DNA from: Carcharhinus longimanus
Taxonomy: Eukaryota
Direction of reading: 5' to 3'
DNA length: 64,000 nucleotides
NCBI GenBank assembly: GCA_030264375.1
Contig: JASCQW010000098.1
Coordinates: 13,159,653 to 13,223,652, forward strand
Numbering within the stretch: position 1 is the first letter of the stretch; each line of letters begins with the position of its first letter. A model generated the notes under the pieces. That model saw only the letters and a program-made list of their open reading frames with translations, ran no database searches and was not told the DNA's origin. Both the position numbers and the translations under genes were made by a program. Positions 9,556-57,681 of this stretch are shown here, piece after piece.

Positions 9556-9943
9556 CTATTCGAACAAACCACAGATCAGACTCCCGTAAGACATTTAGCC
9601 ATATCATTACACCTCTTCAAAAAAATTTCAGATTTTAAATACAACTAGAAATCAAGACCTCACCCTTATATTTCCCCATTCCCAGCAACTTAACCTACAG
9701 CTTACCTTCTAGTCTATGTGGCTAATACAAAACACCGTACAGATAATTTACCTCTGGTTTGTCTTGGTACAATTTAATTCCACTTAAAATGAAAGTCTTG
9801 TGCTTTGTGGTACATTATTCAGATTATATGTTGATGAAATCTAACATTTTGAAGCCTTGCTTCAATTTGCAATGAGGTCACTTCTGTTAATATTTTAGAA
9901 AATTCACAACACATTGAGCATCAAAGAAAGAAATCAGTCTTGC

Positions 9944-10159
9944 CTATAATGCTTCTGCTAGCAAAGATTTCTGAAGTTGATAAAACATNNNNNNNNNNAA
10001 GATGTTGATAAGTGCTTCATCAATGCGGAGGAAAGTCTGGTCACCACTTGCACCAATCCAGGTAGCCTTTCTGCCATACTTTGATCCTATATTGGGCATT
10101 GCAGATGGTCTTGTGTTCCAGAAGGGTACATCCAAAATTGGTCTACCAAGTTGCCCTTT
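9944..10159 (-). CDS. MYCBP2: MYCBP2 exon 22, KGQLGRPILDVPFWN...DEALIN[gap]VLSTSEIFASRSII; interrupted by 10 N at 9989-9998
   Basis: ttgtag acceptor; donor TAG|GCAAGA (GC); conserved peptide on both sides of the gap. Confidence 0.9.
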   Translation of the reverse strand, partial: KGQLGRPILDVPFWNTRPSAMPNIGSKYGRKATWIGASGDQTFLRIDEALINIXXXXMFYQLQKSLLAEAL

Positions 10160-10930
10160 CTACAAGAGACAAAAAAAATTTCATTTTCACTTCCACGAAA
10201 ATGAATTTGATGGACAGCTTGCATTTATGTACCTCTTTTAAAATAGAAATGCATCCCAAGGCACTGTATCCCAATTTTAGTGCGTAAGTTAGGAGTCGAC
10301 AACATTAGGGAGAATGAAGTAAACAGTCTTGATACTGGAGAGATTATGGGGCCAGAATTTCATTTCAGGACTAAATAAAACCCAGTGTTCAAGAACAATG
10401 TGGTGTAATTTTAAATCATTACTTTACACTTTCAAAATGTACACACTTCATCTGAATTTTTTTCCCTGGATCAATTTTACGCTTAGTAACGGGAATGATG
10501 ACCGAGATCAAAACACTTTTGACGTACAGATGAACCCTAAATAATCTACCATGACAGAGTAAAGCTCAAAAGCCACAGTTACGATTGAGCATTTAAATCT
10601 TAATTCTGAAAACAAATAACCTATGAAATGTTTAGGTTCATTGCTCAAGAGGGGGTTAATTGTTAGATGGCACTTAGGCTGTGGGTGTAATACCAGCCTG
10701 CATTTGAGAGCAATACAAGATTGAGGAATTTCTCCATGTTAAGGTTTATTCCATATAATCTACAGTACAAGATTATACAGCAGAAATTTATGTGCGTCTT
10801 AAAAACCATTCCATTTTCTTTGACATATTGCACGCAAAATATTTTATGCCCATACATTATCTTCGGTACACTCCCTTTTGTTGAAAAATTGCATAAAATA
10901 GCAAGCAAATGATAAGAAATATATTCTTAC

Positions 10931-11048
10931 AGAGAAGCTTCCAAATGTGAAGACTTGTCCATCTGCTAACAGTAGGGCTGTATGGTTACTGCCTGCAGTT
11001 ACTTGGGTGCAAGGAGCTGGTAAGTCCTGCACCAATGTCGGCGCACCT
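10931..11048 (-). CDS. MYCBP2: MYCBP2 exon 21 (118 bp), RGAPTLVQDLPAPCTQVTAGSNHTALLLADGQVFTFGSFS
   Basis: tttcag acceptor, TCT|GTAAGA donor; ORF 10844..11137. Confidence 0.97.
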
Positions 11049-11150
11049 CTGAAACAAAAAATATATTTAGCAAGGTACCAGTCTTGTCCGGTAATGCACA
11101 TTCCTATCTCAAAATACCACGAATACAAAGTTTTCACTTTTATTTATTAC

Positions 11151-11232
11151 CTTGAATTTACATCTCCATGTCCAAGTTGACCATGTTGTCCATATCCAAA
11201 TGTATACACATCACCATTCTCCATCAGAATCA
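11151..11232 (-). CDS. MYCBP2: MYCBP2 exon 20 (82 bp), VILMENGDVYTFGYGQHGQLGHGDVNS
   Basis: RCC1 motif GQLG; ctacag acceptor, AAG|GTAATA donor. Confidence 0.97.
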
Positions 11233-13112
11233 CTGTAGATTATTTGGAAAACATTAAAACCCTTGGAGTAATAATTTGAGTACCAGTAGCATATAAATAT
11301 TTATTCCTCTGAAAAAAATGCAAATTATATTGACTAGTGCAAATCTAAATATTCACCTAATTTATGAATTCCCAAGCTTTTATAATTACTGGATATTAAA
11401 ACTTTCTAGTTGGGTTACAATTGAAAAGAAACTTGGCTCCTCCAAGAAAGATCGGAGGAGTTTAGCCAGCTAGCAGCTTAGTCACACAGCCTAAAACGGC
11501 TGCAAATGAAATGTTTACTCTGTCCTGAAGCCATAATTCAGTGTCCTTGTATTTTGAGAGTGAGCATGGGATGGGAAAAGAGGATGGCGGGGATCAGGAA
11601 GTGAAAGAGGAAAGGAAGGAAGGAAATATAGTCAACTCCTTATTACAACACAGTGAAAATGATTGGTCATGTTTGCATATGCATAGAGGTCAGGCAAAAA
11701 GCTAAGGCAGAATATTCCAGTGATGTCCACCATTAGCAAAATGAGCATCTCAACACGCACTGAAGTTTAGTGATAAACAATAATCATGTAGGAAGGGTTG
11801 CAAAGAATGAACCATATCCCAGGAGATGCAATGTGTTTGAGGGAAGGTGTGGGAAAGCAAAAAAAGGGAAAGAATTTTTAAAAGTTGCAAATAGCTCTGT
11901 TTGAACATTACTTGAAATTCAAGTACTAATGTTCCCAAATGGATAATTACTTCAGCTGCAACAAATTAGTTACTGCAATTGTCTGTGTCTTGGGAATATG
12001 TTAAGACAAACAGATCAATAGGTGACCTTTCTGCTATGGATCTCTCATGAATCTATGAATCAACACCTTTGAAACACAAAGGCACAATCATGACATCTTG
12101 TTCAGCAACACCGAACTAAATGTAATGCATTTGAACTTCAGCACCCAATTAACTAAATCTAAATATGGTAGAAATTAATTATTGCTCCTTAGTTGACCTA
12201 ATAGGACTTTGCACTTTGCTGGTATATCAGCAGAGCCTGAACTACTTGATTCATATAATGTAGAAGATTGATCGCCACAAACTTATGAATGCCTTTACCC
12301 AGAGTTAAAACTTTAAAAAAATGACCACGTGGAATATCTAGTCAGACAAGTTATGCTCAGTCGAATTTTATGCCAACTTTCTACTCAGAATTACCAATAA
12401 ACCCCTCAATTTGTAACTGATAACAAGAACTTGGTTCCTTAGGAGGTACACAACTCTTGTAAAACTATTGTGAATTATGCAAGAATTATACTGCTTTTAA
12501 ACAAGTTTTCATCAAGATGACAGTACTGCAGACTTTGTGTTATCAACAACTTCAGAGTTGAAATAACTTAATTGCGATCTGATTTTTTTTAAAAATAGGT
12601 GAATCATTTTACCGATTCTTTAGAAATAAAGTACACTTAAACACCTGGCAACAGACATTTTAAAAAAGGAGTCCACAAAAACACTGGGGTGAACTTATGG
12701 ATATACTCAAAATCCTTAAAAAAAACTAACTTCTGAGAACCTGCTTGCCATACAAGGAACAACAAGGGGCCGTGAGATGAAACTCAAAATGGAAGACAGA
12801 GATAAATTCAAAGTAATGTCTTGTAATGAGTTGGTGAATCTTCTGAATGGACTGCCCAGGAAAGTGATTAGAAATTTTTAAGTGGGTCGGTCAGTCATCT
12901 GGCAAGAAGCATAACTGAAAAAACCATAATGAACTATGTGTTTGAACAGGGAGATGGACCAAAATGGTCATGTCCAACAATGTACATTCCCATTTCAAAA
13001 GAGACTGCACTTAAAGTAATTAATTGGATATGGAGCATTTGCAGATTTCCAGAGCACAGGAAAAACACTTAGTTTTTTTTGCTTCATTCAAATAATTGTG
13101 TATTATGCATAC

Positions 13113-13232
13113 CTGAGTGATGGAATCCACAGCTAACCTGGATTGCTTGAAGCTCATAGTCAAGACAGAGAGCACCTGGAGGATATGTTGCAATCTTGCT
13201 GGTGTCTTTATCCCCCCTTTCTCCATTAGCAT
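13113..13232 (-). CDS. MYCBP2: MYCBP2 exon 19 (120 bp), DANGERGDKDTSKIATYPPGAL...IQVSCGFHHS
   Basis: Manual translation; tttcag acceptor, CAG|GTATGC donor. Confidence 0.96.
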
Positions 13233-14339
13233 CTGAAAATAAATGTCCAATCACACACAGTAATCCACATATCTACACAGAGCAAACGGTTATAACAGTT
13301 GAGTCCGATATTTATGGGAGACTCAACTATAACACACAGCAACTTAGGTTTCATCATAAAGCCAAAACACACTTATTGCAAATATAATGCAAATTTTAAA
13401 AACATAGTCTTTGTTCTTCTATTCAACTTATATTGTGGCTGTGCATTATTTAGAGTTGCTATTACTCTTCCTTGATTTGGTAACTTCTATCATTAAAGAG
13501 ATAGTAAAGAAAACACACCAAAAATGTTAATTTGTCAAAGGTTTCTGTAATGTAATTACGTCAAGAACTGCAGCTACTTGGATCATGATAAATTATTTGA
13601 CGTGCAAAGTGAAAGGAACCAATTTCTGTACCATGTCCATTGATCTCAAAAAGTTCACCTAAATAACCTTTGTTAGAAGAAAGGGCAGCAGATATGTGAA
13701 AGCCTTCAGATAAAAATGTTCCCCTGGAGGAATCTATAAATAAGAACTAAATAAAAATCATTGGTTTGGCTGTCCTCGCTCTCTGAAAGTTCAACCTCCA
13801 CACGCAAATGCGGCAATATACCAAAGCAATAGCCCTCTGAGTAGGTCTCACCTTGCCGGTTCCTTGATCACCATTTGTTTTGGTCAGTTAAGTGTGTGAT
13901 GCATACAGAACCCAGCAGTTTAGGAATCTGGAAATCAAACTACCAAAAAAATCCAAACTTTGGAAGGGTTTTCTCTCACTTCCTTGCTGCCAAAATACAT
14001 TGCACTTATTCAAGTTTGGGAAGCTCAGGTTCAGGTTGGCAAAGCCAACGTTTAAAACTGCATTAAAGGTTAAAACACAAACAGGTCTATGCTCTACATG
14101 AAACTCTCTCTCTTACCTGACTATCATATCCTTCAATTTATTTTTCCTCTTTTGTACTTGCAGCTTCCACAAGTGGACTTATGCTAATTGCCTCAACAAA
14201 TCCACACACCAGCAAGTTATAAATTCTAACCACTCTCGGGATAAAGAAGCTTCTTCTGAATTTCTTATTGAGTTTTTAAGTGACTGTATTAAATGACCCT
14301 AGTTTTGGATTTCTCAAGTGGAAACATCTCTTACATAAG

Positions 14340-14890
14340 TGACATTTGTGTCACACAAGGGCAAGGCGATGACCATCTCCAACAAGAGAATCTAACCATC
14401 ATCTCCCGGCATTCAATGGCATTATCATCACTGAATCCCCCATTATCAACATCTTGGAGGGGGGGTTACATAACTGCCACGGTAGTTACACGACTGTCAG
14501 TTTCTGGTCAAAGAAGCTGGGAATTCTGCAGTCAGTAAGTCACCTCTTGACTACTTAAAGCCTGCCCAACATCTATAGAATACAAGTCAGAAGTCTGATG
14601 GGAATATTCTCCACTTGCCTGAAGCACAACTCCAACAACAGTTAAGACGCTCGACACCATCCAGGTCAAAGCAATCAGCCAGACTGACACCCTATCCACC
14701 ATTTTCAATGTTCATTCCCTGCATCACTGACCCAAGTGGCAGCAGTGTGTACCATTTACAAGATGCACTGTAGGAGCTCCAAGGCTACTTCCACAGCACT
14801 TTCCCAATCTGTGACCTCTACCACCTACAAGGGTGTGCAAAGCAGATACAAGGACAGACACCTTCCCAGATGCATACCATCCTGGGTTTT
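14340..14890 (+). mobile_element. CR1/L2-group LINE C-terminal fragment
   Basis: caagtcagaagtctgatgggaatattctccacttgcct...ctcgacaccatccagg (QVRSxMEYSPLA...LDTIQ-like). Confidence 0.7.
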
Positions 14891-14967
14891 GGTAAAAACT
14901 TGCTCATAAGTAAGATTTCTTATTGACAATTTTCTGCCTCATCTAAAGGGAAGACTATACAATGGGC

Positions 14968-15104
14968 ATAAAAGCGAAATATACTGCAGATGCTTGAAGC
15001 TGAAACAAAAACAGAAAATGCTGGAAAATCTCAGCAGGTCTGTTAGCATCTGTGGGGAGAAAACAGGGCCAACATTTCAAGTCTAGATGATCCTTCGTCA
15101 GAGA
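14968..15104 (-). mobile_element. Short Penelope-type terminal remnant with decayed hammerhead motif
   Basis: Minus strand CTGACGA-aggatc-atcta-gactt-GAAATGTT; same shared block as 9203-9302. Confidence 0.65.
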
Positions 15105-17249
15105 ATAAGAATTAAAGTCCACATTGGTCAAAACCAGATGGACTGCAGACTTAAGTATAAATAAAATGAGAAACCTGAAGAACTCCAAAATATCTTCACT
15201 ACAAGTGTCCCAGAACTGTGGCATGGCCCAAACTCATTTTGAATGAAGAAACTATGAAGAACCACTGACTTGTTCTGGTGTGGGAGGTAAGTGACTGGTG
15301 TGTTTCTGGTGAAAGTAGCAAAGATGAAAGACAGGTTCAGCTCAAAAAGGGGATGAGGGGAAGCACGTGAGAGGAAGTACCACAAAGTGTTCACAAGTCT
15401 TTTTGAAGTGATCCCAGTACCTTTTATTTGTGGATACTAACTCATGTTACGCAAGGTGGGCCAAAAGCTTTAGTTCTAATATTCAACATATGAGTTGTAA
15501 AGTGCAGTCAGATTTATTTTCCATTATAAAAGCAAAGAGTATTTTCTTCAGAAGAACAAGCGCAGGCCAAATAAAATTGAGGGAGTTTAGAATTTTAACT
15601 TCAGATGCTACAAATAAGGCAAGTCAAAAACATCTGTGTTATATGGCTGTATGATTACTACCAATTGCCAGAATCCTGTTCACTCAATCTCAATAGTTTA
15701 GAAATGAACTTTAAAAAAGCATCAGGATCTGAAAATAAAGCGTTGCCACTAGGATTTCAGTGAAGTCAAAACTCTGTATAAAACATTCATATAATGGTAC
15801 TTTGAACTGTAGAAAGTCACCCAACAATGCAAATATATTTCCACATTTCTGGAGAAGTACATATTAATACAAAGTGAGAGTGGTCACCTGTCACTCTAGT
15901 GGGAACAACTTGTGGCGATGATTTATTTGAAAGCATCATGCATATTAAAGCCTAAATGCAATTAAAGCTGAAGTACAATCAAAAGGTATGTTAATGCCAA
16001 CATGAAAGAAGCCTGGTGACAACGCTACAGTTAACAAGTGCATTCAATCCTAAAGAATTTTTAGTCCAGGGGAAAAAAGGGTTGCTGAACCAGAACTCAA
16101 TGCAGTGTTATGTCCAAGTTGGTCAAATCAACGAGTAATTAAATTAATGTTCAGTCACTACTTTTTCACCAAATACAGATTAATTCCTGAGATTGGTTTC
16201 TAAATGCAGATATATTTTAATCAGACTGACAACTTGCAATTTTTGTCAGCAGAGTTCAGGTTCAAGAAGAAATTTCACACATTTAACTCTTTCCAGTCAA
16301 AGCAAAAAAAGTACTAATTTCAAATCTTATCAGTAATTTGACCTTCTTTTTGCACAACTCTGCAGAGATTAAATGCAAGAAATGCTTATACCACACGAAA
16401 GGAAGCAATTTATAGGAATATTTTCACAAAATTACTACTTTTGTCACAGGTGCTTTCCTGTTTGGAGCATAAGCCTAAGCAAATGGCTCAGTAATTCAAT
16501 GATTTTAATTGCTTTTCAATAGCCCAGGAAACCACCGAATTTAAGTTTATGTCTCAAAAGAGAATCAGCAGAGAGGCAAAATAGATGATTAATTTAGCTT
16601 ATAAGAGAGTCTGAACCTACAAGTCACTACTTGTGGACCATAAGTTGCATTAAATTGCTCATCTCACCATTACCCAATAGATGGAGCATACAGAGAAAGC
16701 CAGAAAGATGCTGACTGCAATACAAGCAACTACTTTTAATCAAGACACGTCTGACTGGAAAGGATTAATTGCAATTGTCAAGACAAAACAGCTGGCAAGT
16801 TTTCTTTCAACTCGAGAAAGAATACAGAAAGCATAAATGCAATGCAACGTGTTACATAATGTACCGCAACCTGTAAGCAGAATAATAATTTAGCAAAAAA
16901 TAATTCTCCATTTCTTCAATGCAACAATCTCCATTCTTCAAAATGGAATTGCAAAATTCCAAACAAAACAATAAGGGAAAAGAAAAACCTGACCAACAGC
17001 AAAACGTGTTATTTCTTGTACAAACTAAAACAATTAAGCAACGTAATTACTCGCTGGTTTCCATTCAATCTGGTCAAACTTAAACAAGACTAGCTTTATT
17101 TTCTCCTTGGGTTACTCAACATTAAGACATGAAAAGTAAAATCTGTTCTGTACAGTTGTCCACATTAGACAGAGACTCAGATGACAGAAGAATATGAATG
17201 GCAGGATAGGTTGTAGTCCTCCAGCCAGTAAGGAAGGATGACCAAGTAC

Positions 17250-17357
17250 CTTTATGCTTGTCCCGTTTATGCTTTAGCTTTGATGGAAGGGGTCTTAGCC
17301 TGGCTATGGTCTGTTCTCGATGATTCAAATAAATGGGACCAGGAAATACAATGGGGC
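17250..17357 (-). CDS. MYCBP2: MYCBP2 exon 18 (108 bp), GPIVFPGPIYLNHREQTIARL...KHKRDKHK
   Basis: cctcag acceptor, AAG|GTACTT donor; ORF 17122..17421. Confidence 0.96.
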
Positions 17358-17651
17358 CTGAGGAGAAATAACTTGCACATGCATAGGAAAGCTCACAAAT
17401 GAAATAACTTGTCAAAAGCAAAAAATATTGTCTACAATATGAAAAGAAAATGGCATCAACTGTATTTGAGGCATTGAGTAAAGACTACATTGAAGGTAGC
17501 AATATAATAAAATAAAAGAATCAAAAAAAAAAGACGATGAATGGTACACGACAAATTATAAACATGATAATTTCCAAAGAAATTCCGGTGTGCATATAAT
17601 GATTAGGCAAAACAAAACCTGAATAAATTCACAATTTTAAATTCTGCGCAA

Positions 17652-18125
17652 TAAAAACAGGAAATGCTGGAAAAACTCAGCAGCTCTGGCAGCATCTGTG
17701 GAGAGAGAAACAGAGTTAACGTTTTGAGTCCGTCTGACTTCTTCAGAGCTAAACAGAGGGAGAAATGTGCTGGATCTTGCACACTTTAGGAGGGGGTGGG
17801 GCACGTGGAGCTAAATAGAAGGTCAGGGATAGATGGCAGCTAAGGCAGAATTTGACAAAGACATCATGGAACACAAAACAAAGGGAGCGTTAATGATATT
17901 GTTACAACTAAAGGTGGTGTTAAAAATGGCATTAAGTCAGGAGAGCAGAATGTGTTAATAGCAGAACAGGTTAGCACTCTGTGAAAGCAAAAGTTAATAA
18001 ATGACAGATGACACTGCTGCTGGAAGAGGAATTGGATTAAAAAAGGGTCAAAATGGAGAGTTCAAGGTCTGAAGCTCAATATTAAATCCAGAAGGCTATA
18101 AAGTGCCTAATCAGAAGATGTGGCA
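17652..18125 (-). mobile_element. Penelope-type remnant (terminal block plus ~370 bp body) with decayed hammerhead motif
   Basis: Minus strand CTGAAGA-agtc-agacg-gact-cAAAACGTT-aac; same shared block; body extent approximate. Confidence 0.6.
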
Positions 18126-19330
18126 CCTGGGTTCAATTTATTTATTTCCTATATTATTATTTGATGAAATGCATACAAAAAAATGCGAATGTAAAAACAT
18201 ATTCTTTTTTTATTGAGAAATATGTAGTTTGGCACATTTTGCTTAGCAAAATAACATATTTTGATAAAAATCTGTATTCAGATCATCATGTTGCTGTTTT
18301 GAAGCAACGCTCAAACAAAATCAATTTAACCATTGCTCTCACGAACAGTGATGACGACCTCCCTGGTAGTAGGAAGTTACGAGAATGTATAAATGATGTA
18401 GGCAACCCATTTGTAACACGGTTAGATGAAAGCAGATCATGATCTTCTTTGTGAATGATAATTCTAATGAATTCATTACTTGTGTGCCAGAAGAAGCTTC
18501 TATGTTTTGTTAGAAATAAATTAAATAGTATTTAAGTCATTCCTTCACCCAGAGGTAGCTTTCAGCAAAACAAATATCCATCTGAAGTGGTAACGACAGC
18601 ACTGGAAAATATATTTCCAACACTTCTTCATACATGACAGAAGCAATGCAATACAACACTACAAGACTAGGAGTTAATCTTTGATTTAGGACAGTTAACT
18701 TATCTAACAATTTTCACTCCATTTTGACTGACACTTAGAGGAAAAAAAACACAAGGGGAAAATGAATTCTATTACTTTAAAAAGAAACAATGCAACTGAT
18801 GATGCAATGCTGAAAGAGTGTTATATTGTCTATGGTGCTATTCTTTAGATGAGATGCTGAACTGAGGCTTTATCTGCCTACTCCAAGTGGACATTAAAAG
18901 GTTCAGTCATGCTGTTTAAAAAGTGGAAAATACTCTGGCCTTATAAATATTCATAATCATAAACCTATAACCAAAGTTAAATTAGTTACTAATTTTTAGG
19001 CCAGTTAAAATGTGCTATTTTTAGAACTATAATGCATTTTCCATAAGAATTTATGGAGGAATATAGGATTCAAGTAATTAAGCTGATTATGTTACAAATG
19101 TTTAATCAGATCAAGGTGAACTGAATATTGTACCACAGTGCGAGTAGTTTTTAAAAAAATCATTCAGCATGACACTTCAAATTTAGATTTCGATATTCTG
19201 TGTGATTAATGGAAATCAATAGTCATCCAGAATATTTAATTTGTGCAAAGATTTTTTTGAAACTTTGGTTTGAGAAACATCACTTTAGAAGGATGTCAAT
19301 CTATCACTTAAGCCTTTGCAAAAAACATAC

Positions 19331-19432
19331 CTCTCACTTCTTCCAGCCTGTGCCTTCTGCTCAGCCGCTGCCTTTTCTCTTCTTGTCGTAATTGAATATG
19401 TTCTTCTATATTAACTCCTGGCGGGACAGGTC
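19331..19432 (-). CDS. MYCBP2: MYCBP2 exon 17 (102 bp, or 105 bp from 19435), GPVPPGVNIEEHIQLRQEEKRQRLSRRHRLEEVR
   Basis: Manual translation; tandem cag|cag acceptor, GAG|GTATGT donor. Confidence 0.93.
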
Positions 19433-20343
19433 CTGCTGATGAAATCACATTTAAATAAAAAATTGTGGGTACTGGAATCACGTTCATTTCTCCATTCTTC
19501 CTAATTTAATTTCATCCTGCAGCAATAAGGTACATACACCCCAAACTCTTATTTATGAGAGGGTATTTTAAGAGCTAAAATTGTATTAGGCACCATTTAA
19601 TTTATTTCGTGCAGAGCACTGGGGATTTTTTCTGAAAGCTTTCTATCTTTTAAAGCTAAGTAATATCTTCCATCCTGCAACAAACAGTTTAATGCAATGT
19701 ATTCTGTGCTGCTGTGCAGAGCTGCTGATAATTAAATATTGTAAACACTGTTTACTGTGCAATACTTTATAAAACAAAATATATGTTCAAATGTTAGGAC
19801 TGAATGCCAAGAATAGGTGAACAGTCATCATGTAAAGATGAATTGAAAATGCAGTTACTGACCAACTCTTGCAAATAAGAATGTTACACCAAAAATTAAA
19901 GCAAAAACTAAAACTAAGTCCATATGTAGTTAACAAGAAAAATTATAAGGAGGATACCCGGGAAAGGAAAGGAAAGGGATGCGAGTACAATAGAGGTAGC
20001 AATTGCTATATGTTTAGTATGCCAAAGTGCCTTCATCTCACAATTTTTAGGATTCCGAGTTATATTTCACTGCATTACTTAATATTATATCCTTCAACAC
20101 AATGTGAAGAGATGTTTCAAATGGCAATTGCTTCAGATACACTGTAAAGATTTACACTACTGCCTATAAATCTTATTAAATTTGATTATCTGCAGGGCAA
20201 TCTCAAAGAAACTTACTTTCTTTCTGGTTGAAATTTTAAACAGATGACAAGGATTCTACGAAAACACACTGCTGGATCTTGTTTAGACATCATGTGAAAC
20301 TAAGCTTCAGGGAAATTGAGTTGTGCTTTTAAAAGACACTCAC

Positions 20344-20489
20344 CTAAAAGAAGATCTAGAGGGATCATCTCTTTAACAGCATCAAGAATTCCTCGCTGTC
20401 TCGCTTCTTGTCCATCCAGTTCTCGGGCACAGGCCTTACAGCAGCCACACAAAGCGCAACCAGACTCACCAGACCCACATCCACAGAGC
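20344..20489 (-). CDS. MYCBP2: MYCBP2 exon 16 (146 bp), GLCGCGSGESGCALCGCCKACARE...PLDLLL
   Basis: ttttag acceptor, TAG|GTGAGT donor; ORF 20300..20527. Confidence 0.97.
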
Positions 20490-22830: not shown

Positions 22831-22945
22831 TACATATTATATTTATTAACTCTTAAGCACTTTGTTCAATTAAATCATTTTATTTTTGATATTTTAACAT
22901 AGCTACTGGTTCAATTCGCAACAAAGGACAGCACACTGAACTCAC

Positions 22946-44800: not shown

Positions 44801-46550
44801 GAAATTTGATGCGCCAACAGAAATTAACTAATGTTTTTCTGGTACAGGCAATGCAAAGGAGATCACCCAAGTCTATCAATTCATATATTAGCGTTTCAAT
44901 TAAGCTGTTCCAGCTACAAACCACTTTGCCTTTATTTCTGAATGAAGGTATCAATACCAAGTAAATCATTTCAGGAGAAACATGTTTCACTGAACAAGTG
45001 AAAAGATCTGGCCAATTGGGAGTATTAAAACAATGAAATTGCCATAAACAAACATACAGCTGTAGCACTTGTTAAATCTAACTTGAATCGACCATAAAAC
45101 TGCAGAGCTCTCCCATTTCCTCAACTGTTTAATCGTTGGTTGTGCTCAAGCAAATTTAAGATGCATCTTTTTCATTATTCAAGTAGTTTTGCTTCAAATC
45201 CTTTCCTTCATTATTTGACAAACACTCTGGGTTACAGAAATAAAATTAAAGCACAAGTATCTTAACTATTAAGTATTTTGATGTACTGCTTTACTGGCCA
45301 AGCTGAACAAGTCAATATACTAGACGACTTGGATACTGTCCTCTGGCTTAGCCCATTGGAAAGCTTGCTTTTAGGGAAAACCGCTGTTTTCTCTTCCTGG
45401 TCACTACCGTCTTGTGAGAGATTGTAATGTCCAAGGGTCCAGTCAATTACTTGATTTTGTCATTTGATGTGGCAAATGGCTAAAAAACACAAATCTTGAA
45501 GATGGAAATACATTACCAAGTAGAATCTGCAAAAGGTCTAAGCCACAAAAACACTGACTGGAACTGGGAACACCTAGCAGCTCCCTACAAGCGCAGAAAT
45601 CCTGTACAGTTCTGCATTTATTGCCATACTGAACAGACATTCCTGAGGTTGATTGCTGCAAACCTGAAGCCACATGCTGCCTTTTTAAAGGCCACAACCC
45701 TATTATTGAACTTTTACTTCTTAAACAAGTTGCTTTATCTCAAATATACACAACAAGCAAAGATTTTCACATCCTTCTGGCCTTGAAGTCATCGGAGATA
45801 CAGAAGAACAACTATTTTACTTTGAAAAAACTGGTTTAATATTCTCTTCAATGTAGCTAACGCCACTAACCCAAAAAGCTCCAGGGCATATCCAAAAATT
45901 AACTCAACCCGTGCAGAATTTTAAATCAAAGCATAAACAAATTCTACAACTCTACAAGAATATTTGCAAAACTGAGCAGCCTAATATTACTAGGATGTCG
46001 CATAATAATACATGATAGCAATCCAGACCTTGAAGTGACAATGGGAAATAATTAAACTGAATGTGATTAAACAATCTAGGCTGGCACTAGTACAAATGAA
46101 TTTGCAAGCTGCTTGATATTTCTATCATTCAATGCACAACTCGCTTACTAATATTCTTCAGGAAATAGAACCAACAACCCAACCTTGTCTGGCCAAAGCA
46201 ACTCTACCCTACATTACACGGCCTACTCATAATACCCTAGGGAATAGCTGCCAAGTCAGTCAGATAGACAAACAATTGCTATGAAGCAGGGCAACTAGGC
46301 AAGGGCAATACATTGGCACAAACATAATAGGGATGTGTTTCAAGAAGTAATAGTTTAAAGCAAACAGTTTACAGTGAGACAAAAAGAACCAGCCAAGCCA
46401 CAGCATATGGCTCAGCCTCAATATCATGTGTCTGGGGATGTACTGACAACTCATTGATGACATATCTAACATTTATTTTTCAATAATATAGACAACTTTT
46501 AAACAGTGTGTAATAGCACTATNNNNNNNNNNGTAAAAATATTTACTTAC

Positions 46551-46793
46551 CCTCACTGTCCCACTATAACCAGAACCAATTTTGTACAATCCGTCTTTAG
46601 CCAAAAGATACAGGAATGAGCCATCACTCTGCAGTAGACACCAATCATCTTCATCTGTAAATACCTCTTTTAGAAACCACTTGTGCATTAAAGCTACTTT
46701 CTTTATTCCATTTGTGAACCAGTCCTGTATTTGAATTTTTCCAACTAAGACTGCTTGCACACTCCTTTGCAAAGCATTTAGAATGGTTGGCAC
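46551..46793 (-). CDS. MYCBP2: MYCBP2 exon 6 (243 bp), VPTILNALQRSVQ...IGSGYSGTVR
   Basis: ttttag acceptor, AGG|GTAAGT donor; ORF 46473..46793. Confidence 0.97.
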
Positions 46794-47249
46794 CTAAAAG
46801 CAAGTAAAACTGAAATGTTAAATCACATAAAAATGCTGATAATATAGAACCATTAACTGAATAAGGACTTCTGAATATCAAGTTGCAGTAGCTTCATTTG
46901 ATGCAAGATATTTATTAGATATTCATCATAAACTATGAGAATCCTCAATCGGTATAAAATTCCATGAAAAATCAGGACAAGGAAATAGACTGCCCATTTG
47001 ATTAGACTACTAAATTCTTCCAATGACTTAAGCTATTTACATATATGTGAAAGTATTTTCTTTGTAAAATACACATCAAATAATTTATATTAAAGTTCAT
47101 CCATCTCCAATCAATAAATTCAACCATCCAGAATATTCTGAACAATGAACAACAATTTGTATTCATATAGGGTCTTTTACATAACATCCCACAGTGCTAC
47201 ATAGAAATTATTTACATGGAAATAAATAGGCTTACTAATAGCATGCATA

Positions 47250-47760
47250 TTTGGTTGAAAGGTCATCCTTGGGATCAAACATGACACTGAGGTTCTGAAG
47301 AATCTGGTTTGGCCTCAAACCTGTTGCCAAAGCAAGGTGCGGGAGTTGGTTGTTGAGAAATGGAATTTCTGAGGGGTACCAAAGGCTTCAAATCTTCCCA
47401 ATATTAAATTGAAGAATTTCTGGTCATCCAGTACTGGATGTCAGACCATTTAAAGATAGTGGAGAGGTGAGAGAGGTGATGATGAGGTAAAGCTGGATGC
47501 CATCAGCATACACTTAGAAACGGATTTTTTTTTAAAAAGATGATGTCACCAAAGAGAAGCATGTAGATCAGAAATAGGAACCTGACCGTGGATGGATCCT
47601 TCGGAAATGTCAGAGTAACCGTGTGGGAATGGGAAGTGAAATCATTGATGGAAAATCTCTGGCTAAACTTGGATAGACAAGAATGGAACCAAGTATGTGC
47701 AGTCTCATCTAACTACATTATAGTGGAGAAGCATCATTGAATGGTGTGATTTATACTTAG
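47250..47760 (-). mobile_element. L2-type LINE RT fragment
   Basis: Minus strand ...VYADGIQLYL near 47480-47515 resembles the YADD motif region. Confidence 0.6.
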
Positions 47761-47914
47761 CATGTTCATTAGTGATGTGAAAGGAATGCATTTTAGAAAT
47801 TTAATATCTCTGACTAAAAGCATGGGTGGTACAATTTAAACCCTATCCCGAGATCTGTGAAAATAACCATCGAGATGGTTCGCATTAGTACAAAACATCA
47901 AAAGTAGATTTTAC

Positions 47915-49000
47915 ATGTATGAATTAATAGGCCACTCAGCGCCTCGAGCCTGTTTTGCCAATCAATAAGATCATAGCTGATCTGACTGCAACTTCAACTG
48001 CACATTCCTGCCTACCCCCAATAACCTTGCACCCTCTCATTAATCAAAAATCTATCTAGCTCTGTCTTGAAAAAATATTCAAACACTCTGCTTCTATTGC
48101 CTTTTGAAGAAGAGTTCCAGAATCTCACGAACTTCAGAAAAAAATTTCTGTCCAAAATCAGTGACCCCTTATTTTTAAGCTGACCCCAAGTTCTAGAGTC
48201 TCCAACAAGAGGAGACATCAGCTCTCATCCACCCTGTCAATATCCCTCAGGGGCTTAAAGGTTTTAATCAAGTTGCCCTTTAATCTTTTAACCTCCACCT
48301 AACCTCTCCAACTTTCCTCATAAGACAACCTGCCCAATCCTGGTGTTAACCTAGTAAACCTTCTCTGAATTGCTTCTAATGCATTTAAAATATTTCAAAT
48401 TATGAGACGTGTACTGTATTCAATATGCCATGTGTGGTCTCAGCACTGCATTATACAACTGAAGCATCACCTCCTGAGTTTTGTAAAATTCCTCTCACAA
48501 TAAACAATGACATTCCATTAGCTTTCCTAATTACTTGCTGTGCCTGTGTCTTTTGTGATTCGTATACTAGAACACGCAGATCTCTCTATGCCTCAGTTCT
48601 TTAATCTCTCAAATATTTACCTAATCAGCTTCTTTTTTATTCTTCCTGCCAAAACAGACAATTTCACTTTGCCCACATTATACTCCATTTGCCAGATTTT
48701 TGCCTAATCATCTAACCTATCTCAGCCCCTTTGCAGCCTCTTTACACCCTCTACACAAGTGACTTTCCTACCTTACCTTATTTTGTGATGTCAGCAAATC
48801 TAGCAACCAGATCTTCAGTCCCTTCATCCAAGTCATTTATATAAAAAGTTGAGGCCCCACTTGTCAATCAGGAAAAAAGTCCATTTATGTCAACTGACTG
48901 CTTCCTGTTAGCTAGCCAATCTTCAGTCTAAGCCAATATATTAACCCTTCCACGGAGCTTTTATTTTTGACAAAAATCTTTGAGGTAGTGCCTTATTGTG
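47915..49000 (-). mobile_element. CR1-type LINE 3' fragment
   Basis: CR1 tail ggccactcagc..ctcgagcctg..ccaatcaataagatcat; ccttcatccaagtcatttata (reverse of YINDLDEG). Confidence 0.8.
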
Positions 49001-49863
49001 TAATCTAATAGTAACACAGCTCTAAGCAGCAAGTACACAAAATTAATATAATTTACACATAGGAATTCAATGAGGATAGCATGGAAAGTAGTTCAGTAAA
49101 TTTATTCATGGGCACACGTCTAACTCTCAGCAAAGTCCAAGACATTGGTCATATCTTTGGGTCTTTCAACATCCCACCACAGCACATAGTTTATCATGCA
49201 GTCAATCCTTTACTCAGCTTCAAACAAGTCATATTCTTTTACTGAAATGGCTAGAATGAGCCCTCAGCTTCCTCCTAATTTCCAGATAACCATCTTACTC
49301 TTCCTCTGTGCTGTGACTTTACTGCACTGAAATGAGGACTCGCATGCAATCTCCTTAACTTGTTATTTTCAGGTTCCCAAAACTTTGGACTGGACCTCAG
49401 TCAAACTTTTCTTCAAATAATATGTTTTAAAAAATCAAAATAAGCATCATCTGATTGCATCTTACTTTAATAGACTTTTGACAGCAACTTCATTATGATC
49501 CTTTTTGTCTTGACTTTGCAGCAAAAAAAATTCTACATAGTATTGCAATAGATGCACTCACCAAACTGATAAGTCACCTTGAACTTTCATGCTATTGCTG
49601 CCTGCAATCCTTCACATAATTCAAACAGATTTTCGTTAATCTGTGTCCCAACTCCCATTCATCCACCTTAATTGCCATATCCCTTGAATATCCTCATCCA
49701 ATAAAAAAAGTCTACCGAACTCGAGTCTTGAAACTTTCAATGGATGGAGCACCCATAGCCGTTTGGAGGACAACATTTTAAACTTGGCAGAATGATAAAG
49801 GTTGGCCAAAGCAAATATTTAGGAAATTGAAAAATAAAATCTTTCAAAACAAAATCAAGTTAC

Positions 49864-50060
49864 CTGAATAGGTTGGCAAGCATGGCTGCCATTACTGGTA
49901 AGAATTGCTGACACGGCCTGTAGAATCTTGCCCGTATCTCCCCAAGCAACTACCAGACTGAAGAGGCAGGCACAAGATAATGCAGTCAGTGACTGGCTAA
50001 TATTGTCTGCCATTCCAGTGCTTCTTATTGTTGTTTCTAACAATAAATGGAAGAGAGATT
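49864..50060 (-). CDS. MYCBP2: MYCBP2 exon 5 (197 bp), ESLFHLLLE...SHACQPIQ
   Basis: ccacag acceptor, CAG|GTAACT donor; ORF 49855..50088. Confidence 0.97.
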
Positions 50061-51169
50061 CTGTGGACAAAATCACATTAACCATCAATTAAGGCCCAAA
50101 TTATTCAGGATATAAACGGCTCAATTCATCACTGTCATCCAAAGTCAAATAAATAAATCAGATCTTTCACTTAACCGGGATCTCAGGAATGGTAATTTGA
50201 GGGAAGCCTTTGCCCTCCCATCCCTCATCTTTAAATTATTCTTGAGCATACCTTGGACACTGACCAGAGACACAGAAAAGATAATTGTTCTCAAACTTCC
50301 AAACCACTAAAACCAAAGTTCATGCAAGCGCAGACCTTTTGTCAGCAAGCATCCACTGTCGACTTCTTATTGCCCCACAGTGACATGGCCAAAACCAGTA
50401 ATTTGCACACATCAGGGAATACAAGTGTGAAGGTTAGAAGTTACAATTTACTTCTTAATACCACATTGCCAATCAGGAATAAAGTAGTGGATATTGTCTC
50501 TGACTTTTGAAACACAATTTTCTTCATTTGACTCATTTGGAAATCAATGTTAACTTGCGCCATTCATAATTTAATGCAATTTTAAAACATTAAAAAAAAA
50601 TCAAAAATTTCTTCTTTCTCAAGACCAAGCTCCTATAACTTACTAATGGCTGCTCCCTGGATTGTGGTCAGCATTGAAACTAGCCACTGAGCTTGAGGGA
50701 GGTGGCCACAAAGATCTAGCATCTCTGCACAATGGATTTCACTTTTCCCTGAAGTTGATCCGAATATGATGTAAAAAGTCAGGGGACTCTTGCAGAGGTC
50801 CAGCAACAATATCGTCAACAAGGTACACAGAGAATCTCAATGAAGTTTCCTCAGACAGCCAAACTAGGAAGTAAATGCACTGGCAACGCTTCACTTCTAT
50901 TAAATTTTACCAAGTGCGAAATAAACGATTGGCACATTCACACTGCAAGTTAAATTACCAAACATCAAAAAAAATTTCGAACTTGGAATTTTACCAGAAT
51001 GGCACATAAATATAACATTTATCAGGGCCTCAGAGGATCTTCAGCAATAGTTATGACTTTGTACAATGCTAATACTCCAGTTGCACCTCATTTTTGAGTT
51101 TTCAACAGGGATATTTTAGAGTGAAAGGAGAACTTCTGGCGAGTTCAGTGATATCTAGTTGATTAGTCT

Positions 51170-51752
51170 GTAGGGGCTAATGGTTTCCTACAGACTTTGG
51201 TCAGAACATTGACTACAGAAGTTGGGATGTCCTGTTCAAGTTGAACAAGATATTGTAGGGCCACACTTGGAATACTGTGTACAGTTCTGGTCACCATAAT
51301 CATAAAACTTATATTATGAAACTAGAAAGAGTGCAGAAAAGATTTACTAAGAATGCACCAGGACTTGATGGTTTGAGTTATAAGAGGCTGGATAGATTGG
51401 AACCTTTTTCCCTGGAGCGCAGGAGACTTAGGGGTGGCCTTATAGAGATTTATAAAATAATGAAGGACATGTATCAGCTAGATACATTTTTTCCCAAAGG
51501 TAGGGGAGTCTAAAACTAGAGGGAGGGAGACACAAGGGTCTAGAGTGGCAATTTTTTCACACAGATGGTGGTGAGCATCTGCAACAAGCTGCCAGAGGTA
51601 GCAGTAGAGGCAGGTACAATTTTATCCTTTAAAAAGCATTTAGATAGTCACATGGATAAAATGGGTATAGAGGGATTAGTGGTTAAAAAAGGCAGCATGA
51701 ACAAGTTGGGCCAAAGGACCCATTTCCATGCTATAAACCTCTGTGATTCTAT
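51170..51752 (+). mobile_element. CR1-type LINE 3' end
   Basis: ORF 51277..51513 LERVQKRFT...FSLERRRLRGGLIEIYKIMK. Confidence 0.88.
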
Positions 51753-52486
51753 AAATAGCACACCCATTGGAGAAGCACAGAACTATCGACAGCAACTTGC
51801 AGATTCCTACATTCACTACAAATGTGTGAACTCCAAAGTTATTGCCAGTTCAAGGGTTATTAATGATGAATACTGACAAATTCACCATAATTTCTACCAC
51901 AAAATCTAAACCATTCACTGGAGCACAATACATTAAGGACAATAACATTTCCACATCTTTTTCCCCTGAAAAGTTTTCATATGCATTGTATAATTTTAGA
52001 TGACTAACTGAAGCTTCAATTAACACTTCAAAACTCCTGCAATTTTCTTCCTTCTTTGTCAATGCACGACATGTATTGAATACCACAAAAATGTACATCA
52101 CCAACTTAGTTCAACTGCATTTCTTCATTCATCAAGTCCAATGCTCGTACTTGTCTCAATTTTGATTTTAGGAAGACCCCATTAGAGGATGGATTGATAA
52201 AATAGAACTGTCTATATAAAGTATAGCGCTATACTAACAGCAATAACAGTCAATTTTGCTCCATTGTCTCAAAATAGCCTGCATGAATACTAGCAATGTT
52301 GGGATGAAGGAAACAGCAAGTGATAAAATGCAAATGCAATAATTTCAGCTACAAATACAGCCAACCACTCCTTAAATAATTGTATATTTCAGTTTTATCA
52401 AACAATCCAATTAACGTTTCAGTTGAACAGTATATTAAAATGCTCAATATCTTAATAGATCCAATTTAGCTTATTATTAACTTTAC

Positions 52487-52640
52487 CTAGAACATCAGGT
52501 GGTTCTGACTGGAGACCTTCTGGTTGTTGTCCCTGAAGCATATCAAGTAGAGCTTGTAAACTTCTCAGACATAATGCAGGATGAGAGAACCGTGTCTCTT
52601 TTATAAGTTCAAATACACCACAAAGTCCAATTCCTATGAT
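52487..52640 (-). CDS. MYCBP2: MYCBP2 exon 4 (154 bp), IIGIGLCGVFELIKETRF...SEPPDVL
   Basis: ttacag acceptor, TAG|GTAAAG donor; ORF 52452..52649. Confidence 0.97.
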
Positions 52641-53279
52641 CTGTAACACAAGAATTTATACAATTGTACACTTAAGTAACAATGAATTTAAGTCAGCTTA
52701 ACTTTTAAGTTTAACTTTTCTATGGGAGGAAAATACATTCTTGCTACAATTCAAACGTCTGTACATTCCAAATAGACCTCTTCAAGCACTGTTTATTGTA
52801 AAACAATCTTTTCTGACTTGCAAAGACAGAAGAAATTGTATCATGTATTATATCGTATGATGACAGCGTATAACATGAAGCAACAAGGCAAAATTACTGT
52901 TGCAAGTTATATTAATGGTGATATTGCAAAGTGAATCCTTTTTTAAGAATGAGCATGTTAAACAATATTTCCAGTGCAGATATTAGACTTACTGGAGAAA
53001 CAAAAGTGGCAGATGGAAAGGAAATACTATGTTGGGAATCATTAGATTTGCTTCATATTGCTCTCTTCTTGCTTAATGTTAAATTTTAACTGGAAGTGCC
53101 AATTATTAGTTTCCACTGCAACTGACCGTGCGTTAATTAGGGTGTTCCACAGCTGTACAACTGTGATTCATCACTGCCGCCCAAGTACAAAATTTCAATA
53201 ATTCACGGCCATTTTTGATTTTCCATTGTGTCTGGGAAGAAAATTGGTATTATCTATTTAAAAACTAAGAAATAAAAAG

Positions 53280-53985
53280 CCCTGGCAAGGTGTGAGGTGA
53301 TACATTTTGAGAGGCAAGGGACAATGAACGGTAGGACACGAGGAAGTACAGAAGACTAGAGGAACCTTGGGTGCATGTCCAAAGGTAGATAAGATAGTTA
53401 AGAAGATAGAGGAGATACTTGTCTTTATTAGTTGAGGTATAGAATTTAGGAGCAGAGATGTCAGGATGGAGCTGTATAAAACACTCATTACGCCACAGCT
53501 AGAGTATTGTGTGCAGTTCTGGTCACCACACTCTAGGAAGAATATGATTGCACTAGGAAGGGTGCAGAGGAGATTCACCAGCATGTTGCTTGGGTTGGAG
53601 AGTTTCAGCTATGAAGAGAGGCTGGAAATGCTGTGGCTGTTTTCCTTGGAGCAAAGAAGGTTAAAGAGGGAGCTCATCAAAGTGTACAAAATTGAGAGGG
53701 ATATAGATGGGAAAAAACGTTTCCCTGTAGCAGAGGGGCCAATTTCCAGGGGTCATAGATTCAAGATAAGAAACAGGAGATTTAGAGCTGATTTGAGGAA
53801 AAACTGACCCGCCCAGAGGATGATGGGAATCTGGAACTCTGTCACATTTAAGAAGCATTTAGATGAGTACTTGAAAAGCCATAGCATACAAGGTTACAGA
53901 CCAAGTGCTGGTAAACGGGATTCAGAATAGATAGGTGCTTGATAGCTGTCATAGACAAGGGACTCTGCTATAAAACTCTATAGCT
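53280..53985 (+). mobile_element. CR1-type LINE 3' end
   Basis: ORF 53466..53807 LYKTLITPQLEYCVQFWSP...RVQRRFT...FSLEQRRL. Confidence 0.9.
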
Positions 53986-54241
53986 CCAAAATCTCTAGCT
54001 AAATTGTAAAAACAATTGCACTAAGATTCATACACATCACTATCTAGAGGTAAAAATCTTATCATCACTTTTTTAATTTAAAAAAAATTCACCCGCATCT
54101 TCCAACTCTATACACTGGCCTGAAACATGAATTTTGTTTCTCACTACAAATGTGGGCTGAGCTGAAGGTTTTAGCAGTTTTGTTTTTTCCCTTTAAATTT
54201 CCAACATGCAGTGCTATTGTAAAAGAATTTTAGCTGCTTAC

Positions 54242-54457
54242 CTTGGGTAGTTTAATTGGAGGCTCCCTTAACTCCTCCTCCTCATCAGTGTCTGACTCTC
54301 CACTCTGGATCGAATTCTTTGAGGCCAACGTCAGGGAGGCTTCTTTCCTTTGCCATTCCAAGACACATTGGCGTACATTGCAGTAAACATTGAAGGCCGA
54401 GGGGTTGCTATGGACCTTGATATCTGGAATAGGCGATGCGTTTTCCAAATTCTCAGT
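54242..54457 (-). CDS. MYCBP2: MYCBP2 exon 3 (216 bp), TENLENASPIPDIK...EPPIKLPK
   Basis: cttcag acceptor, AAG|GTAAGC donor; ORF 54230..54448. Confidence 0.97.
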
Positions 54458-55656
54458 CTGAAGGAGAAGTCATAATTCAGATTCTTACTTCATTAGTAAT
54501 AATGAAAATTCTTGAACAAATTTTATGGCTCATCATTCATGCTTAAGTAGAGCATAAAAACCATGAGCAGTAATCAACATAGGTCATGCTTCACAAGTGT
54601 ATTGAATATAATGCAAACAAGGACAGACATGACGTATCCAGCAAATAAAAGTTAGGATTTTCAAGGAGTATTTGGTAATTTTTTTTTAAACAGAAGTCAT
54701 CAAAATTGCAGCTCCATTGCTATTAATTGTACCTAAAAATTTGTGCTAAAAATTGGCATAAGATTAGAAATCAAGTAGCCAAATACACACTGATGACCAA
54801 TAACAAGCAGTCTAGTTCCTCAGTGTTAGGTCATTTGGCTTTTGTATTGTTCATAAGTATGATAGAATATGGTCATGACGTAGAAAACAGAGAAAAAGAG
54901 TGTAGAAGAAAGAATAGTGAAAATGTATTGGCTAAGGCAGCACATGTGATTCAAAGAGATGTCATGACTGATGAAATTGATTTTTCATATTGCACACAGC
55001 GTATACAAATAGAAACTACAAGTTATTTTGCACATGTGAAAGATGCATCAAAATGTTAAAAGATTAAATGATCTCTCCAATATTTAAATAGGCACTACCA
55101 GCCAAATGGAAAGCACTCAATAGAACAGTCATTCAAGATCTCAGTATTCTGAAAGGAAACAGTACCATATGCCCAATCAGGAATAACAGGTGATGCATTG
55201 CTTTCTGGAGTATTATCAACCTTCTAAATAAGACTGATGCTTAACCTTTCCAACAGTCATTAAAATGTAACTACGTAGAACACATAAGGTCAGACTAACC
55301 ATCTATTTCCAGTGTTACCTTGTCAACATTCTTAATTTCAAAACCTCATCCAGGCAGCGTACGAGTTCCACCTAAGCAGCAATAATTTAATTTGCAGGCA
55401 GTGGAAATTTTAATGAAATGAGTGCATTTATTCTTAAAAATTTTGTTAATATATCTTTTGTTTCTTGACATCTTGTAGAGTTCTTAAACATCCAGCTTAG
55501 GGAAATTAATAGCAAAGAAAAATTTTAAACAAAAATCAGATTTTGCATCAAAAGTAATGGTGAAGCCAATAACACTCAACATTATTATAGAGGAAAGCAG
55601 TGTGCGCACACATGCAGTCAAATCTGGAAATTAAAATACATTTCTCTCTCTCTTTG

Positions 55657-56030
55657 GTTCTAACAAAGAGTCAAAAGCACTCGAAACATTAACTCTGCTT
55701 TCTCTCAGATACACTAGGGACCTGGGTTCGATTCTCTGCTTGGGTCACTGTCTGTGCAGAATTTATACATTCTCTCCACGTCTGCATGGATTTCCTCCGG
55801 GTGATCTGGCTTCTTCCCACAGTCCAAGACGCAGTGCTTTGGCTATGCTAAATTCTCCCTCAATCTACCCGAACAGGTGCCAGAGTGTGGTGAGTAGGGG
55901 ATTTTCACAATAACTTCACTGCTATGTGAATGTAAGCCTAATAAATAAACTTTAAAGATGCTGCCTGACCTCCTGACATTTTCCAGCATCCTCTGTTCTT
56001 GTTTCAGATTCCAGCAGTATTTTGCTTTTT
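55657..56030 (+). mobile_element. Penelope-type terminal block split by a 5'-truncated V-SINE (55711-55955)
   Basis: gttCTAACAAagagtc...cactcGAAACATTaac...ctcagat, then SINE, then agatgctgcctgacc...ttccagcat resumes. Confidence 0.65.
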
Positions 56031-56464
56031 ACACTATTTCTTGCCTTATTCACATGTCCCAGATCACGTTTAGGAGGATGTGGAAATGTTCTGACTTTCG
56101 ATTTATCACAGGTTGTAATACAAAAGCCCACATAAAGTCTGCAGGAAACCAAGTATAGTTAACAGTTATTGCTATTCCTTTATCACTGACTACAAAATCT
56201 GACCCATGTAGCATTTCATGATAATTTCAAATAATTGAAACAGGGTTTTAAGTGTTCTGAGCATGACGGTGAAAGGTGGCATGTATTAGCAGTTTATCGG
56301 AGAAAATAAACAATAGCATTAATGCGACTTTAATGTACCATGCACTTCCTCAGATCAGTCTGTAGTTGTTAAATTATTCTAAGCAATAAACAATGGGAAA
56401 AGTCCAGAGCTTAAGTGTAAATAGTCCCACTGTACTTTTATTCACCTGTACAAAGCAGCATCAT

Positions 56465-57520
56465 AAAATTACAGAAAGACGCAGCAGAGCAAAAGGACAT
56501 TGGGCCTATCATGCCTGAGCCAGTTCTTTGAAAAAGCTATCCAATTAGTCCAATTCCCTTGTTATTTTCCCATAAGTCCAGTAAACATGTTTAATTCATT
56601 TATCCAATTGCCTTTATAAAGTTATTATTGATTAAAATTCTGCCATCTTTTCAGGCAGTGCGTGCCAAGTGATATCTCACTGCAAAAAAAGAAAATCATA
56701 TCAGCGCTCCATGTTTTGCCAATCACCTTCAGTCTAGGTCTGTTGACTATCAATCCTCTCGCCACTGAAAACAGTTCCTCATTCTTTCTTCAAAACTATT
56801 CATAATTTTGAACATATTTATCAAATCACCTCTTAACTTTTCTGCTCTAAACAACATAACCCCAGCTTCCATTCCAATGCTTCTAATCTACAGCTTTTCC
56901 AAGGCCTTGGCATCTTTCATAAAGTGTAGTGCCCAGAATGGAGCAAAACACTCTAGCTGAGAACTATCCGATGTTTCATGAAGATTTAGCATAATTTCCT
57001 TGCTTTTGTACTTCATACATTCTTTCCCAAGTAGTCTTCTCATCTTCTCCAGTCACTTTTGAAGATGTATATGTATGTCCCAGATTTCACTGTTGCCGCA
57101 CTCCCTTTAAAACTGTATCACTTTACATTGCCTGTCCTCTTTCTTCTTCCCATGAAAATATATCACTTCATACTTTTACACATTAACTTTGATCTGACAG
57201 TCTGTCCGTCTTACCAGTCTATATCCTCCTGAAGCCTGTTACTATCATCCTCACCCTTTACTAAATTTGAGTTTTGTAGCATCTGCCAACCTTGAAATTA
57301 TGGCCTGTATACCCAAATATTTTTCAAAAGGAGCAGTGGTCCTAATAGTGGTCTCTGGAGAGTGCCACATCACAATTTCCTCCAGTCGAAAAAACAAACG
57401 TTCATTACTACTCTCTGTTCCCCAGCCAATTTTGTATCCAATGTGACATTTTTCTAATTCAATCTCATGGATTTTAATTTTGCTTACAAATCTACTATGT
57501 GGTGATTTGGCAAATAAATG
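56465..57520 (-). mobile_element. Decayed CR1-type LINE 3' fragment
   Basis: gcccagaatggagcaaaacactctag (reverse of LEXXXQFWA); gcatctgccaac (reverse of FADD region). Confidence 0.7.
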
Positions 57521-57681
57521 GTGTTGGAGAGATAGAAAGATTTAGGGAGCAAATTCCAGAGTGTGGGGCCTAGGCAGTTGAAGGGTGTATTTTCATAGTA
57601 AATATTACTAACCACCAGCCACATCCTATCACAATGCATTTTTTTTCTTCTTCAAACTACTGAGCAAATAAATCTACTTGC

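What the first reader, a model, noticed from the sequence alone, without database searches (positions are those of the whole stretch)
9938..57681. Four of 27 MYCBP2 splice donors are non-canonical GC
Seen: keeping the frame and the conserved peptide requires GC donors after exon 2 (AAG|GCAAGT, 57681), exon 9 (GAT|GCAAGT, 36595), exon 13 (CAG|GCTAGT, 25612) and exon 22 (TAG|GCAAGA, 9943). Established: GC-AG introns are roughly 1% of vertebrate introns and usually need a near-perfect U1 match elsewhere. About 0.3 would be expected here, and a simple binomial at 1% gives p of order 1e-4 for four or more. Three of the four deviate further from consensus (GAT exon end, T at +3, A at +6). Inference: this is either a lineage-wide tolerance of GC donors or gene-specific tuning of MYCBP2 output through weak donors.
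Basis: partly seen in the sequence, partly recalled or inferred. Interest (0 to 1): 0.7.

Follow-up and report, generated by a model that had tools for sequence, protein, structure and literature searches.

The report
Five GC splice donors in MYCBP2
In what is likely a shark or ray, 5 of 82 scored introns of the nerve-development gene MYCBP2 start with GC instead of the usual GT, about six times the normal rate; control genes in the same genome look normal and other animals have GT at the two sites we could compare, so these are likely tolerated single-base changes that piled up by chance rather than a conserved control switch.

Summary
Homology-guided junction scoring needs GC donors after exons 2, 9, 13 and 22 (4 of 27), and a spliced contig from a near-identical organism joins exactly at the intron-22 GC-AG. 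The rest of the gene adds one more (1 of 55), so the gene has 5 of 82 (p≈0.002 at 1.06%). Lineage-wide tolerance is rejected: control genes in this genome give 2 GC of 271, and two published cartilaginous fishes have 1.0–1.06%. Conserved tuning is not supported: orthologues have GT at both GC sites that could be tested (intron 9 and the fifth site). Outside +2 the GC donors match U1 better than the gene's GT donors, as is usual for U2-type GC-AG introns; only intron 9 is really weak. About 0.5 genes per genome would show a 4-in-27 cluster by chance. Best reading: near-neutral GT>GC conversions at strong donors, with this gene in the upper tail. Selected dampening of MYCBP2 in this lineage is not excluded but has no direct support. 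Introns 2, 9 and 13 have no read evidence.

The parts
151..57757 (-). MYCBP2 (E3 ubiquitin ligase) exons 2-28; exon 1 and the rest of the gene lie outside the window
   Evidence: tblastn and junction scoring against vertebrate MYCBP2 proteins, 82-85% identity
54458..57681 (-). Intron 2, GC-AG, phase 0, 3224 nt; donor AAG|GCAAGT
   Evidence: no read evidence
36464..36595 (-). Intron 9, GC-AG, phase 0, 132 nt; donor GAT|GCAAGT, the weakest of the five; GAT|GTAAGT in bony-vertebrate-like orthologues
   Evidence: no read evidence in this organism
25497..25612 (-). Intron 13, GC-AG, phase 1, 116 nt; donor CAG|GCTAGT; read-through meets a stop after one codon
   Evidence: no read evidence
9556..9943 (-). 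Intron 22, GC-AG, phase 1, 388 nt; donor TAG|GCAAGA; junction seen in a spliced contig
9989..9998 (.). 10-N assembly gap inside exon 22; the assembly is 11 nt too long here, which gives a false frameshift
   Evidence: X17 contig has 206 letters over 217 places; X2 leaves out 10+1 bases

Best explanation
The gene carries five GC splice donors (four in the window, one downstream) that are likely ordinary major-spliceosome (U2-type) GC-AG introns, each likely made by one T-to-C change at +2 of an ancestral GT donor and likely fixed by drift because the rest of the site still pairs well with U1 snRNA. Shown: the sites; use of the intron-22 junction in a near-identical organism; better U1 match outside +2; GT in orthologues at intron 9 and at the fifth site; a normal rate in control genes. 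Inferred: the direction of change (best supported at the fifth site, where distant homologues also read GT), neutrality, and that 5 of 82 is the upper tail of gene-to-gene variation picked out by scanning many windows.
For: U1 match at positions -3..-1 and +3..+8: 7,7,7,6,7 of 9 for the GC donors vs mean 5.5 for 66 GT donors, p=0.003. This is the compensation described in PMC1557818 (passages). Intron 9: 13 of 13 unspliced read-through proteins continue with Val, i.e. GT (control at GT exon 6: 16 of 16), and 3 of 3 DNA loci read GAT|GTAAGT, identical but for +2. Fifth site: 11 of 11 close read-throughs read Val. Background 2 of 271 (0.74%, CI 0.09-2.6%). Null simulation: 0.5 genes per genome with >=4 GC in 27 consecutive introns; 3.4 genes with >=5 GC if gene rates vary with CV 1. 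One fibrillin gene here has 2 GC of 16. In mammals variable sites (656) outnumber invariant GC sites (253), GT>GC outruns GC>GT 298 to 40, and the authors favour neutral fixation in strong contexts (PMC2490688).
Against: The gene-level excess survives: 5 of 82 vs 2 of 271, Fisher p=0.009. Under a uniform rate only 0.03-0.25 genes per genome are this extreme. Four of the five lie in the first 27 window donors (4/27 vs 1/55, p=0.04, post hoc). Intron 9 lacks G at -1, and its U1 duplex (-3.3 kcal/mol) is weaker than the weakest tenth of GT donors (-5.6). The simulations use assumed intron-number and rate distributions. Neutrality itself was not tested.
Confidence: 0.66

Rival explanations
1. Selection in this lineage favoured weaker donors in MYCBP2: slower or leakier splicing would send part of the RNA to nonsense-mediated decay and set the dose of this axon- and synapse-regulating ligase.
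For: Gene-level excess. Read-through of each GC intron hits a stop within 1-26 codons. Intron 9 is very weak. GC-AG genes are enriched for neurogenesis terms and alternative splicing in human and mouse (PMC7242645, passages).
Against: GT in orthologues at both testable sites, so any tuning is not vertebrate-wide. The one RNA run that covered intron 22 gave a single spliced form and no intron cover (contigs drop rare forms). Early stops are the rule in introns. GC introns are not significantly shorter (p=0.14) or poorer in pyrimidines at the acceptor (p=0.24).
Confidence: 0.17
2. Some of the donors without read support (introns 2, 9, 13 and the fifth) are consensus errors or private alleles of the sequenced individual, or a nearby GT is used instead.
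For: Fragmented assembly (68,774 contigs) with a local defect in exon 22 and exons misplaced on another scaffold. Weak out-of-frame GT sites lie at +4 of introns 2 and 9.
Against: The one site tested is supported by RNA and by a second DNA sample. Errors would not fall only on +2 of donors with above-average U1 match. In-frame GT alternatives score 14-21 points lower or do not exist.
Confidence: 0.1
3. Cartilaginous fishes, or this species, tolerate GC donors genome-wide.
For: The two published cartilaginous fishes are at the top of the six vertebrates looked up (1.06% and 1.01% vs 0.66-0.96%). Fibrillins gave 2 of 84.
Against: 0 of 187 in collagens, 2 of 271 in all controls, 1 of 55 in the rest of the gene. 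A rate near 6-15% is excluded by these.
Confidence: 0.04

Closest known systems
U2-type GC-AG introns (PMC1557818, passages read; PMC7242645, passages and section 19 read)
   Same: GC..AG ends, better match to the U1 consensus at the other donor positions, no U12 donor motif, switching with GT between lineages.
   Different: Five in one transcript; PMC7242645 says few protein-coding genes hold more than two per transcript. The intron-9 donor lacks G at -1.
GT>GC donor conversions in mammals (PMC2490688, part 1 of 2 of the text read)
   Same: Single-base conversion in an otherwise unchanged strong donor (GAT|GTAAGT vs GAT|GCAAGT).
   Different: Seen here in a cartilaginous-fish-like genome and concentrated in one gene. 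Timing within the lineage is unknown.
Deeply conserved GC-AG introns such as those of ABI3BP and NDUFAF6 (PMC7242645, section 19)
   Same: GC donor in a vertebrate protein-coding gene.
   Different: Those are kept from fish to mammals; both MYCBP2 sites that could be tested are GT in other vertebrates.

Membership tests
U2-type GC-AG intron | GC at +1/+2 and AG at the 3' end of a removed intron | tested here: met
   Homology for all five; spliced contig for intron 22 only
U2-type GC-AG intron | Higher U1 complementarity outside +2 than GT donors | tested here: met
   Mean 6.8 vs 5.5 of 9 positions, p=0.003; intron 9 weak by duplex energy
U2-type GC-AG intron | Removal by the major spliceosome | not testable with these tools
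   Inferred from the donor motif
U12-type GC-AG intron | GCATCC donor motif (PMC1557818) | tested here: not met
   No U12-like donor among 71 donors scanned
Vertebrate-conserved regulatory GC-AG intron | GC kept at the orthologous intron across vertebrates | tested here: not met
   Intron 9: GT in 13 of 13 read-throughs and 3 of 3 DNA loci; fifth site: 11 of 11. Introns 2, 13, 22 not resolved.
Vertebrate-conserved regulatory GC-AG intron | Regulated retention or alternative donor use | tested here: inconclusive
   One RNA run, assembled contigs only, one intron, single spliced form
Genome with relaxed donor recognition (e.g. Eurytemora affinis; PMC5714493, search listing) | Non-GT donors several-fold above 1% across genes | tested here: not met
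   2 of 271 control donors

The most novel reading that the evidence does not exclude
MYCBP2 of cartilaginous fishes is a hotspot where selection repeatedly converted ancestral GT donors to GC, building a lineage-specific multi-intron brake on a giant neuronal ubiquitin ligase; intron 9 (GC without G at -1) would be the rate-limiting site.
Probability: 0.13. Interest if true: 0.65.

Novelty: new member of a known kind. Interest (0 to 1): 0.26.

Why it matters
As it stands it is an annotation point and a good natural example: gene predictors that forbid GC donors will mis-model five junctions of this gene, and intron 9 is a clean GT/GC pair with an identical context. If the selected-brake reading were true, it would be a rare case of repeated, directional donor weakening in one gene, and a direct test of whether GC donors are fixed by drift or for regulation.

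Tried and rejected
Lineage-wide tolerance and U12-type identity: rejected above. Three further apparent non-GT donors from automatic scoring were dropped: one GC call downstream was a misplacement (a GT donor fits better), and GA-AG or single-reference calls did not hold. Read evidence: no RNA holder was listed as such; run X21 laid nothing and X13's differences were mostly not shown, so neither counts. Orthologue DNA: a metagenome scan with exon 13, a prokaryote-genome scan with an exon-22 pattern and a viral scan with an exon-13 pattern found nothing. Read-through proteins cannot tell GT from GC at phase-1 introns 13 and 22. One cichlid gene model continues K-V-R after exon 2 (P0021), a weak hint of GT that I did not count. 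A genome search for exon 1 found nothing; a candidate was then found locally. Literature: MYCBP2 with 'GC-AG' gave 0 papers; searches listed none on this gene's donors. The supplements of PMC7242645 held no MYCBP2 entry (2 files). Those of PMC2490688 could not be read and may list orthologous sites. Rfam: 0 matches in the window.

Full report
Gene and lineage. The minus strand of the window carries exons 2-28 of MYCBP2: an exon query returned vertebrate MYCBP2 proteins, and tblastn placed 27 exons. The window lies at G000:C98:13159653-13223652 and exon 6 is single-copy. The protein is 82% identical to a teleost and 82-85% to tetrapod references. The verdict does not depend on it, since all six vertebrates looked up have 0.66-1.06% GC-AG.

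Observation. Scoring all frame-keeping donor/acceptor pairs gives GC-AG at 57681, 36595, 25612 and 9943, 14-21 points above the best GT-AG where one exists. The other 23 of 27 donors are GT. For intron 22, a contig of run X17 (a run guessed to be RNA, under another organism code, with no differences in four of five exon pieces) skips 388 bases. Only the register 9556-9943 has canonical ends, GC..AG. The same contig confirms three neighbouring GT-AG junctions. The genomic donor of that organism was not seen. DNA run X2 covers the donor and none of its listed differences falls there (40 of 249 rows shown). Introns 2, 9 and 13 rest on the assembly and homology alone.

Whole gene. I fetched 200 kb downstream and 100 kb upstream and scored junctions against five full-length tetrapod proteins, correcting four by eye. 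There is a fifth GC donor, CAG|GCAATA, at C98:13079086, with no in-frame GT alternative. That makes 5 of 79. A candidate exon 1 and two exons on scaffold C184 add three GT donors, and one donor lies in an N gap: 5 of 82 (6.1%, CI 2.0-13.7%). P(>=4 of 27) is 1.8e-4; P(>=5 of 82) is 1.9e-3.

Background. Supplementary tables S1 and S8 of PMC7072748 give 1664 of 157,385 GC-AG in Callorhinchus milii (1.06%), 1529 of 152,088 in Rhincodon typus (1.01%) and 0.76% in human. In this genome I used genes whose exon ends are fixed by the protein repeat. Fibrillar collagens: 187 GT and 0 GC of 193 Gly-X-Y runs, 6 ending otherwise and dropped. Fibrillins: 82 GT and 2 GC of 87, 3 unscorable. Together 2 of 271 (0.74%, CI 0.09-2.6%); against 5 of 82, p=0.009. 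These are two gene families, not a genome-wide count. So the genome is normal and the gene is high.

How unusual after scanning many genes. With 17,847 genes, an assumed intron-number distribution of mean 8.7 and a uniform 1.05% rate, 0.5 genes per genome have >=4 GC within 27 consecutive introns (30-40% of simulated genomes have one), and 0.03-0.2 genes are as extreme as 5 of 82. If rates vary between genes, genes with >=5 GC and <=90 introns number 0.1 (CV 0), 0.25 (CV 0.5) or 3.4 (CV 1). The two GC donors among 16 in one fibrillin hint at such variation. The gene is in the tail, but not out of reach for a scan of many windows.

Donor strength. Outside +1/+2 the GC donors match the U1 consensus (recalled motif) at 7, 7, 7, 6 and 7 of 9 positions, against a mean of 5.5 for 66 GT donors of the gene (p=0.003). 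This is the compensation described in PMC1557818 (passages). The exception is intron 9: no G at -1, perfect +3..+8, duplex -3.3 kcal/mol, below the GT tenth percentile of -5.6. None of 71 donors has a U12 motif.

Conservation. At phase-0 introns, proteins mis-called on genomic contigs read through the donor and show Val for GT and Ala for GC. Control: 16 of 16 Val after exon 6, a GT donor. Intron 9: 13 of 13 read-throughs show Val; the other 9 of 22 hits were spliced or modelled. Three metagenome loci (two near-identical and teleost-like, one amniote-like, assigned by peptide likeness) read GAT|GTAAGT. Fifth site: 11 of 11 Val among read-throughs with >=36 of 43 identities, 16 of 17 at 31-35, and 20 of 22 at 26-30, one of which reads Ala; some distant ones may lack the intron. 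So both testable GC sites are GT elsewhere, and at the fifth site GT is likely ancestral. Introns 13 and 22 cannot be tested this way, and intron 2 has only a weak hint of GT.

Mechanism. Most likely each site arose by one T>C change at +2 of a donor that pairs well enough with U1 to stay usable, and drifted to fixation. PMC2490688 (part 1 of 2 read) reports 298 GT>GC against 40 GC>GT conversions in mammals and calls neutral fixation in a strong context the more plausible route. The abstract listing of PMC13129441 says 15-18% of +2T>C changes keep some normal transcript. Shown here: sites, one junction, compensation, normal background, GT in orthologues. Inferred: direction, neutrality, use of four junctions. 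The rival, selected dampening through leaky splicing and decay, fits the residual excess and the weak intron 9, but has no direct support: the one RNA run gave a single spliced form.

Verdict. Real and correctly read, a new instance of a known intron class at an unusually high count per gene. No paper on GC donors in MYCBP2 turned up; unreadable supplements of PMC2490688 may bear on mammalian orthologues. Interest 0.26.

Noticed in passing
window 9989-10007: The N gap in exon 22 is 11 nt too long and breaks the frame; RNA and DNA contigs give a 205-nt exon.
   Followed up: yes
L082 (G000:C184:12956095-12959280): Three MYCBP2 exons that follow exon 28 lie on another scaffold, probably a scaffolding error.
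   Followed up: partly
G000:C98, about 13235625-13235737, minus strand: Candidate exon 1, about 18 kb upstream of exon 2, with a phase-2 GT donor that fits the exon-2 frame.
   Followed up: partly
G000:C171, about 15452736 and 15469003, plus strand: A fibrillin gene has two GC donors (both GCAAGT) among 16 scored EGF exons.
   Followed up: no
window 19418-19436: Three in-frame acceptors before exon 17; homologues differ by the same short Pro-rich stretch, so alternative acceptor use is possible.
   Followed up: no
proteins P0072, P0121-P0123, P0126, P0132: Lizard MYCBP2 isoforms carry an insertion right after exon 9, suggesting an extra exon in intron 9 in that group.
   Followed up: no
protein P0256: A distant homologue reads Ala-Ser after the exon that precedes the fifth GC donor, possibly an independent GC donor at the same intron.
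   Followed up: no
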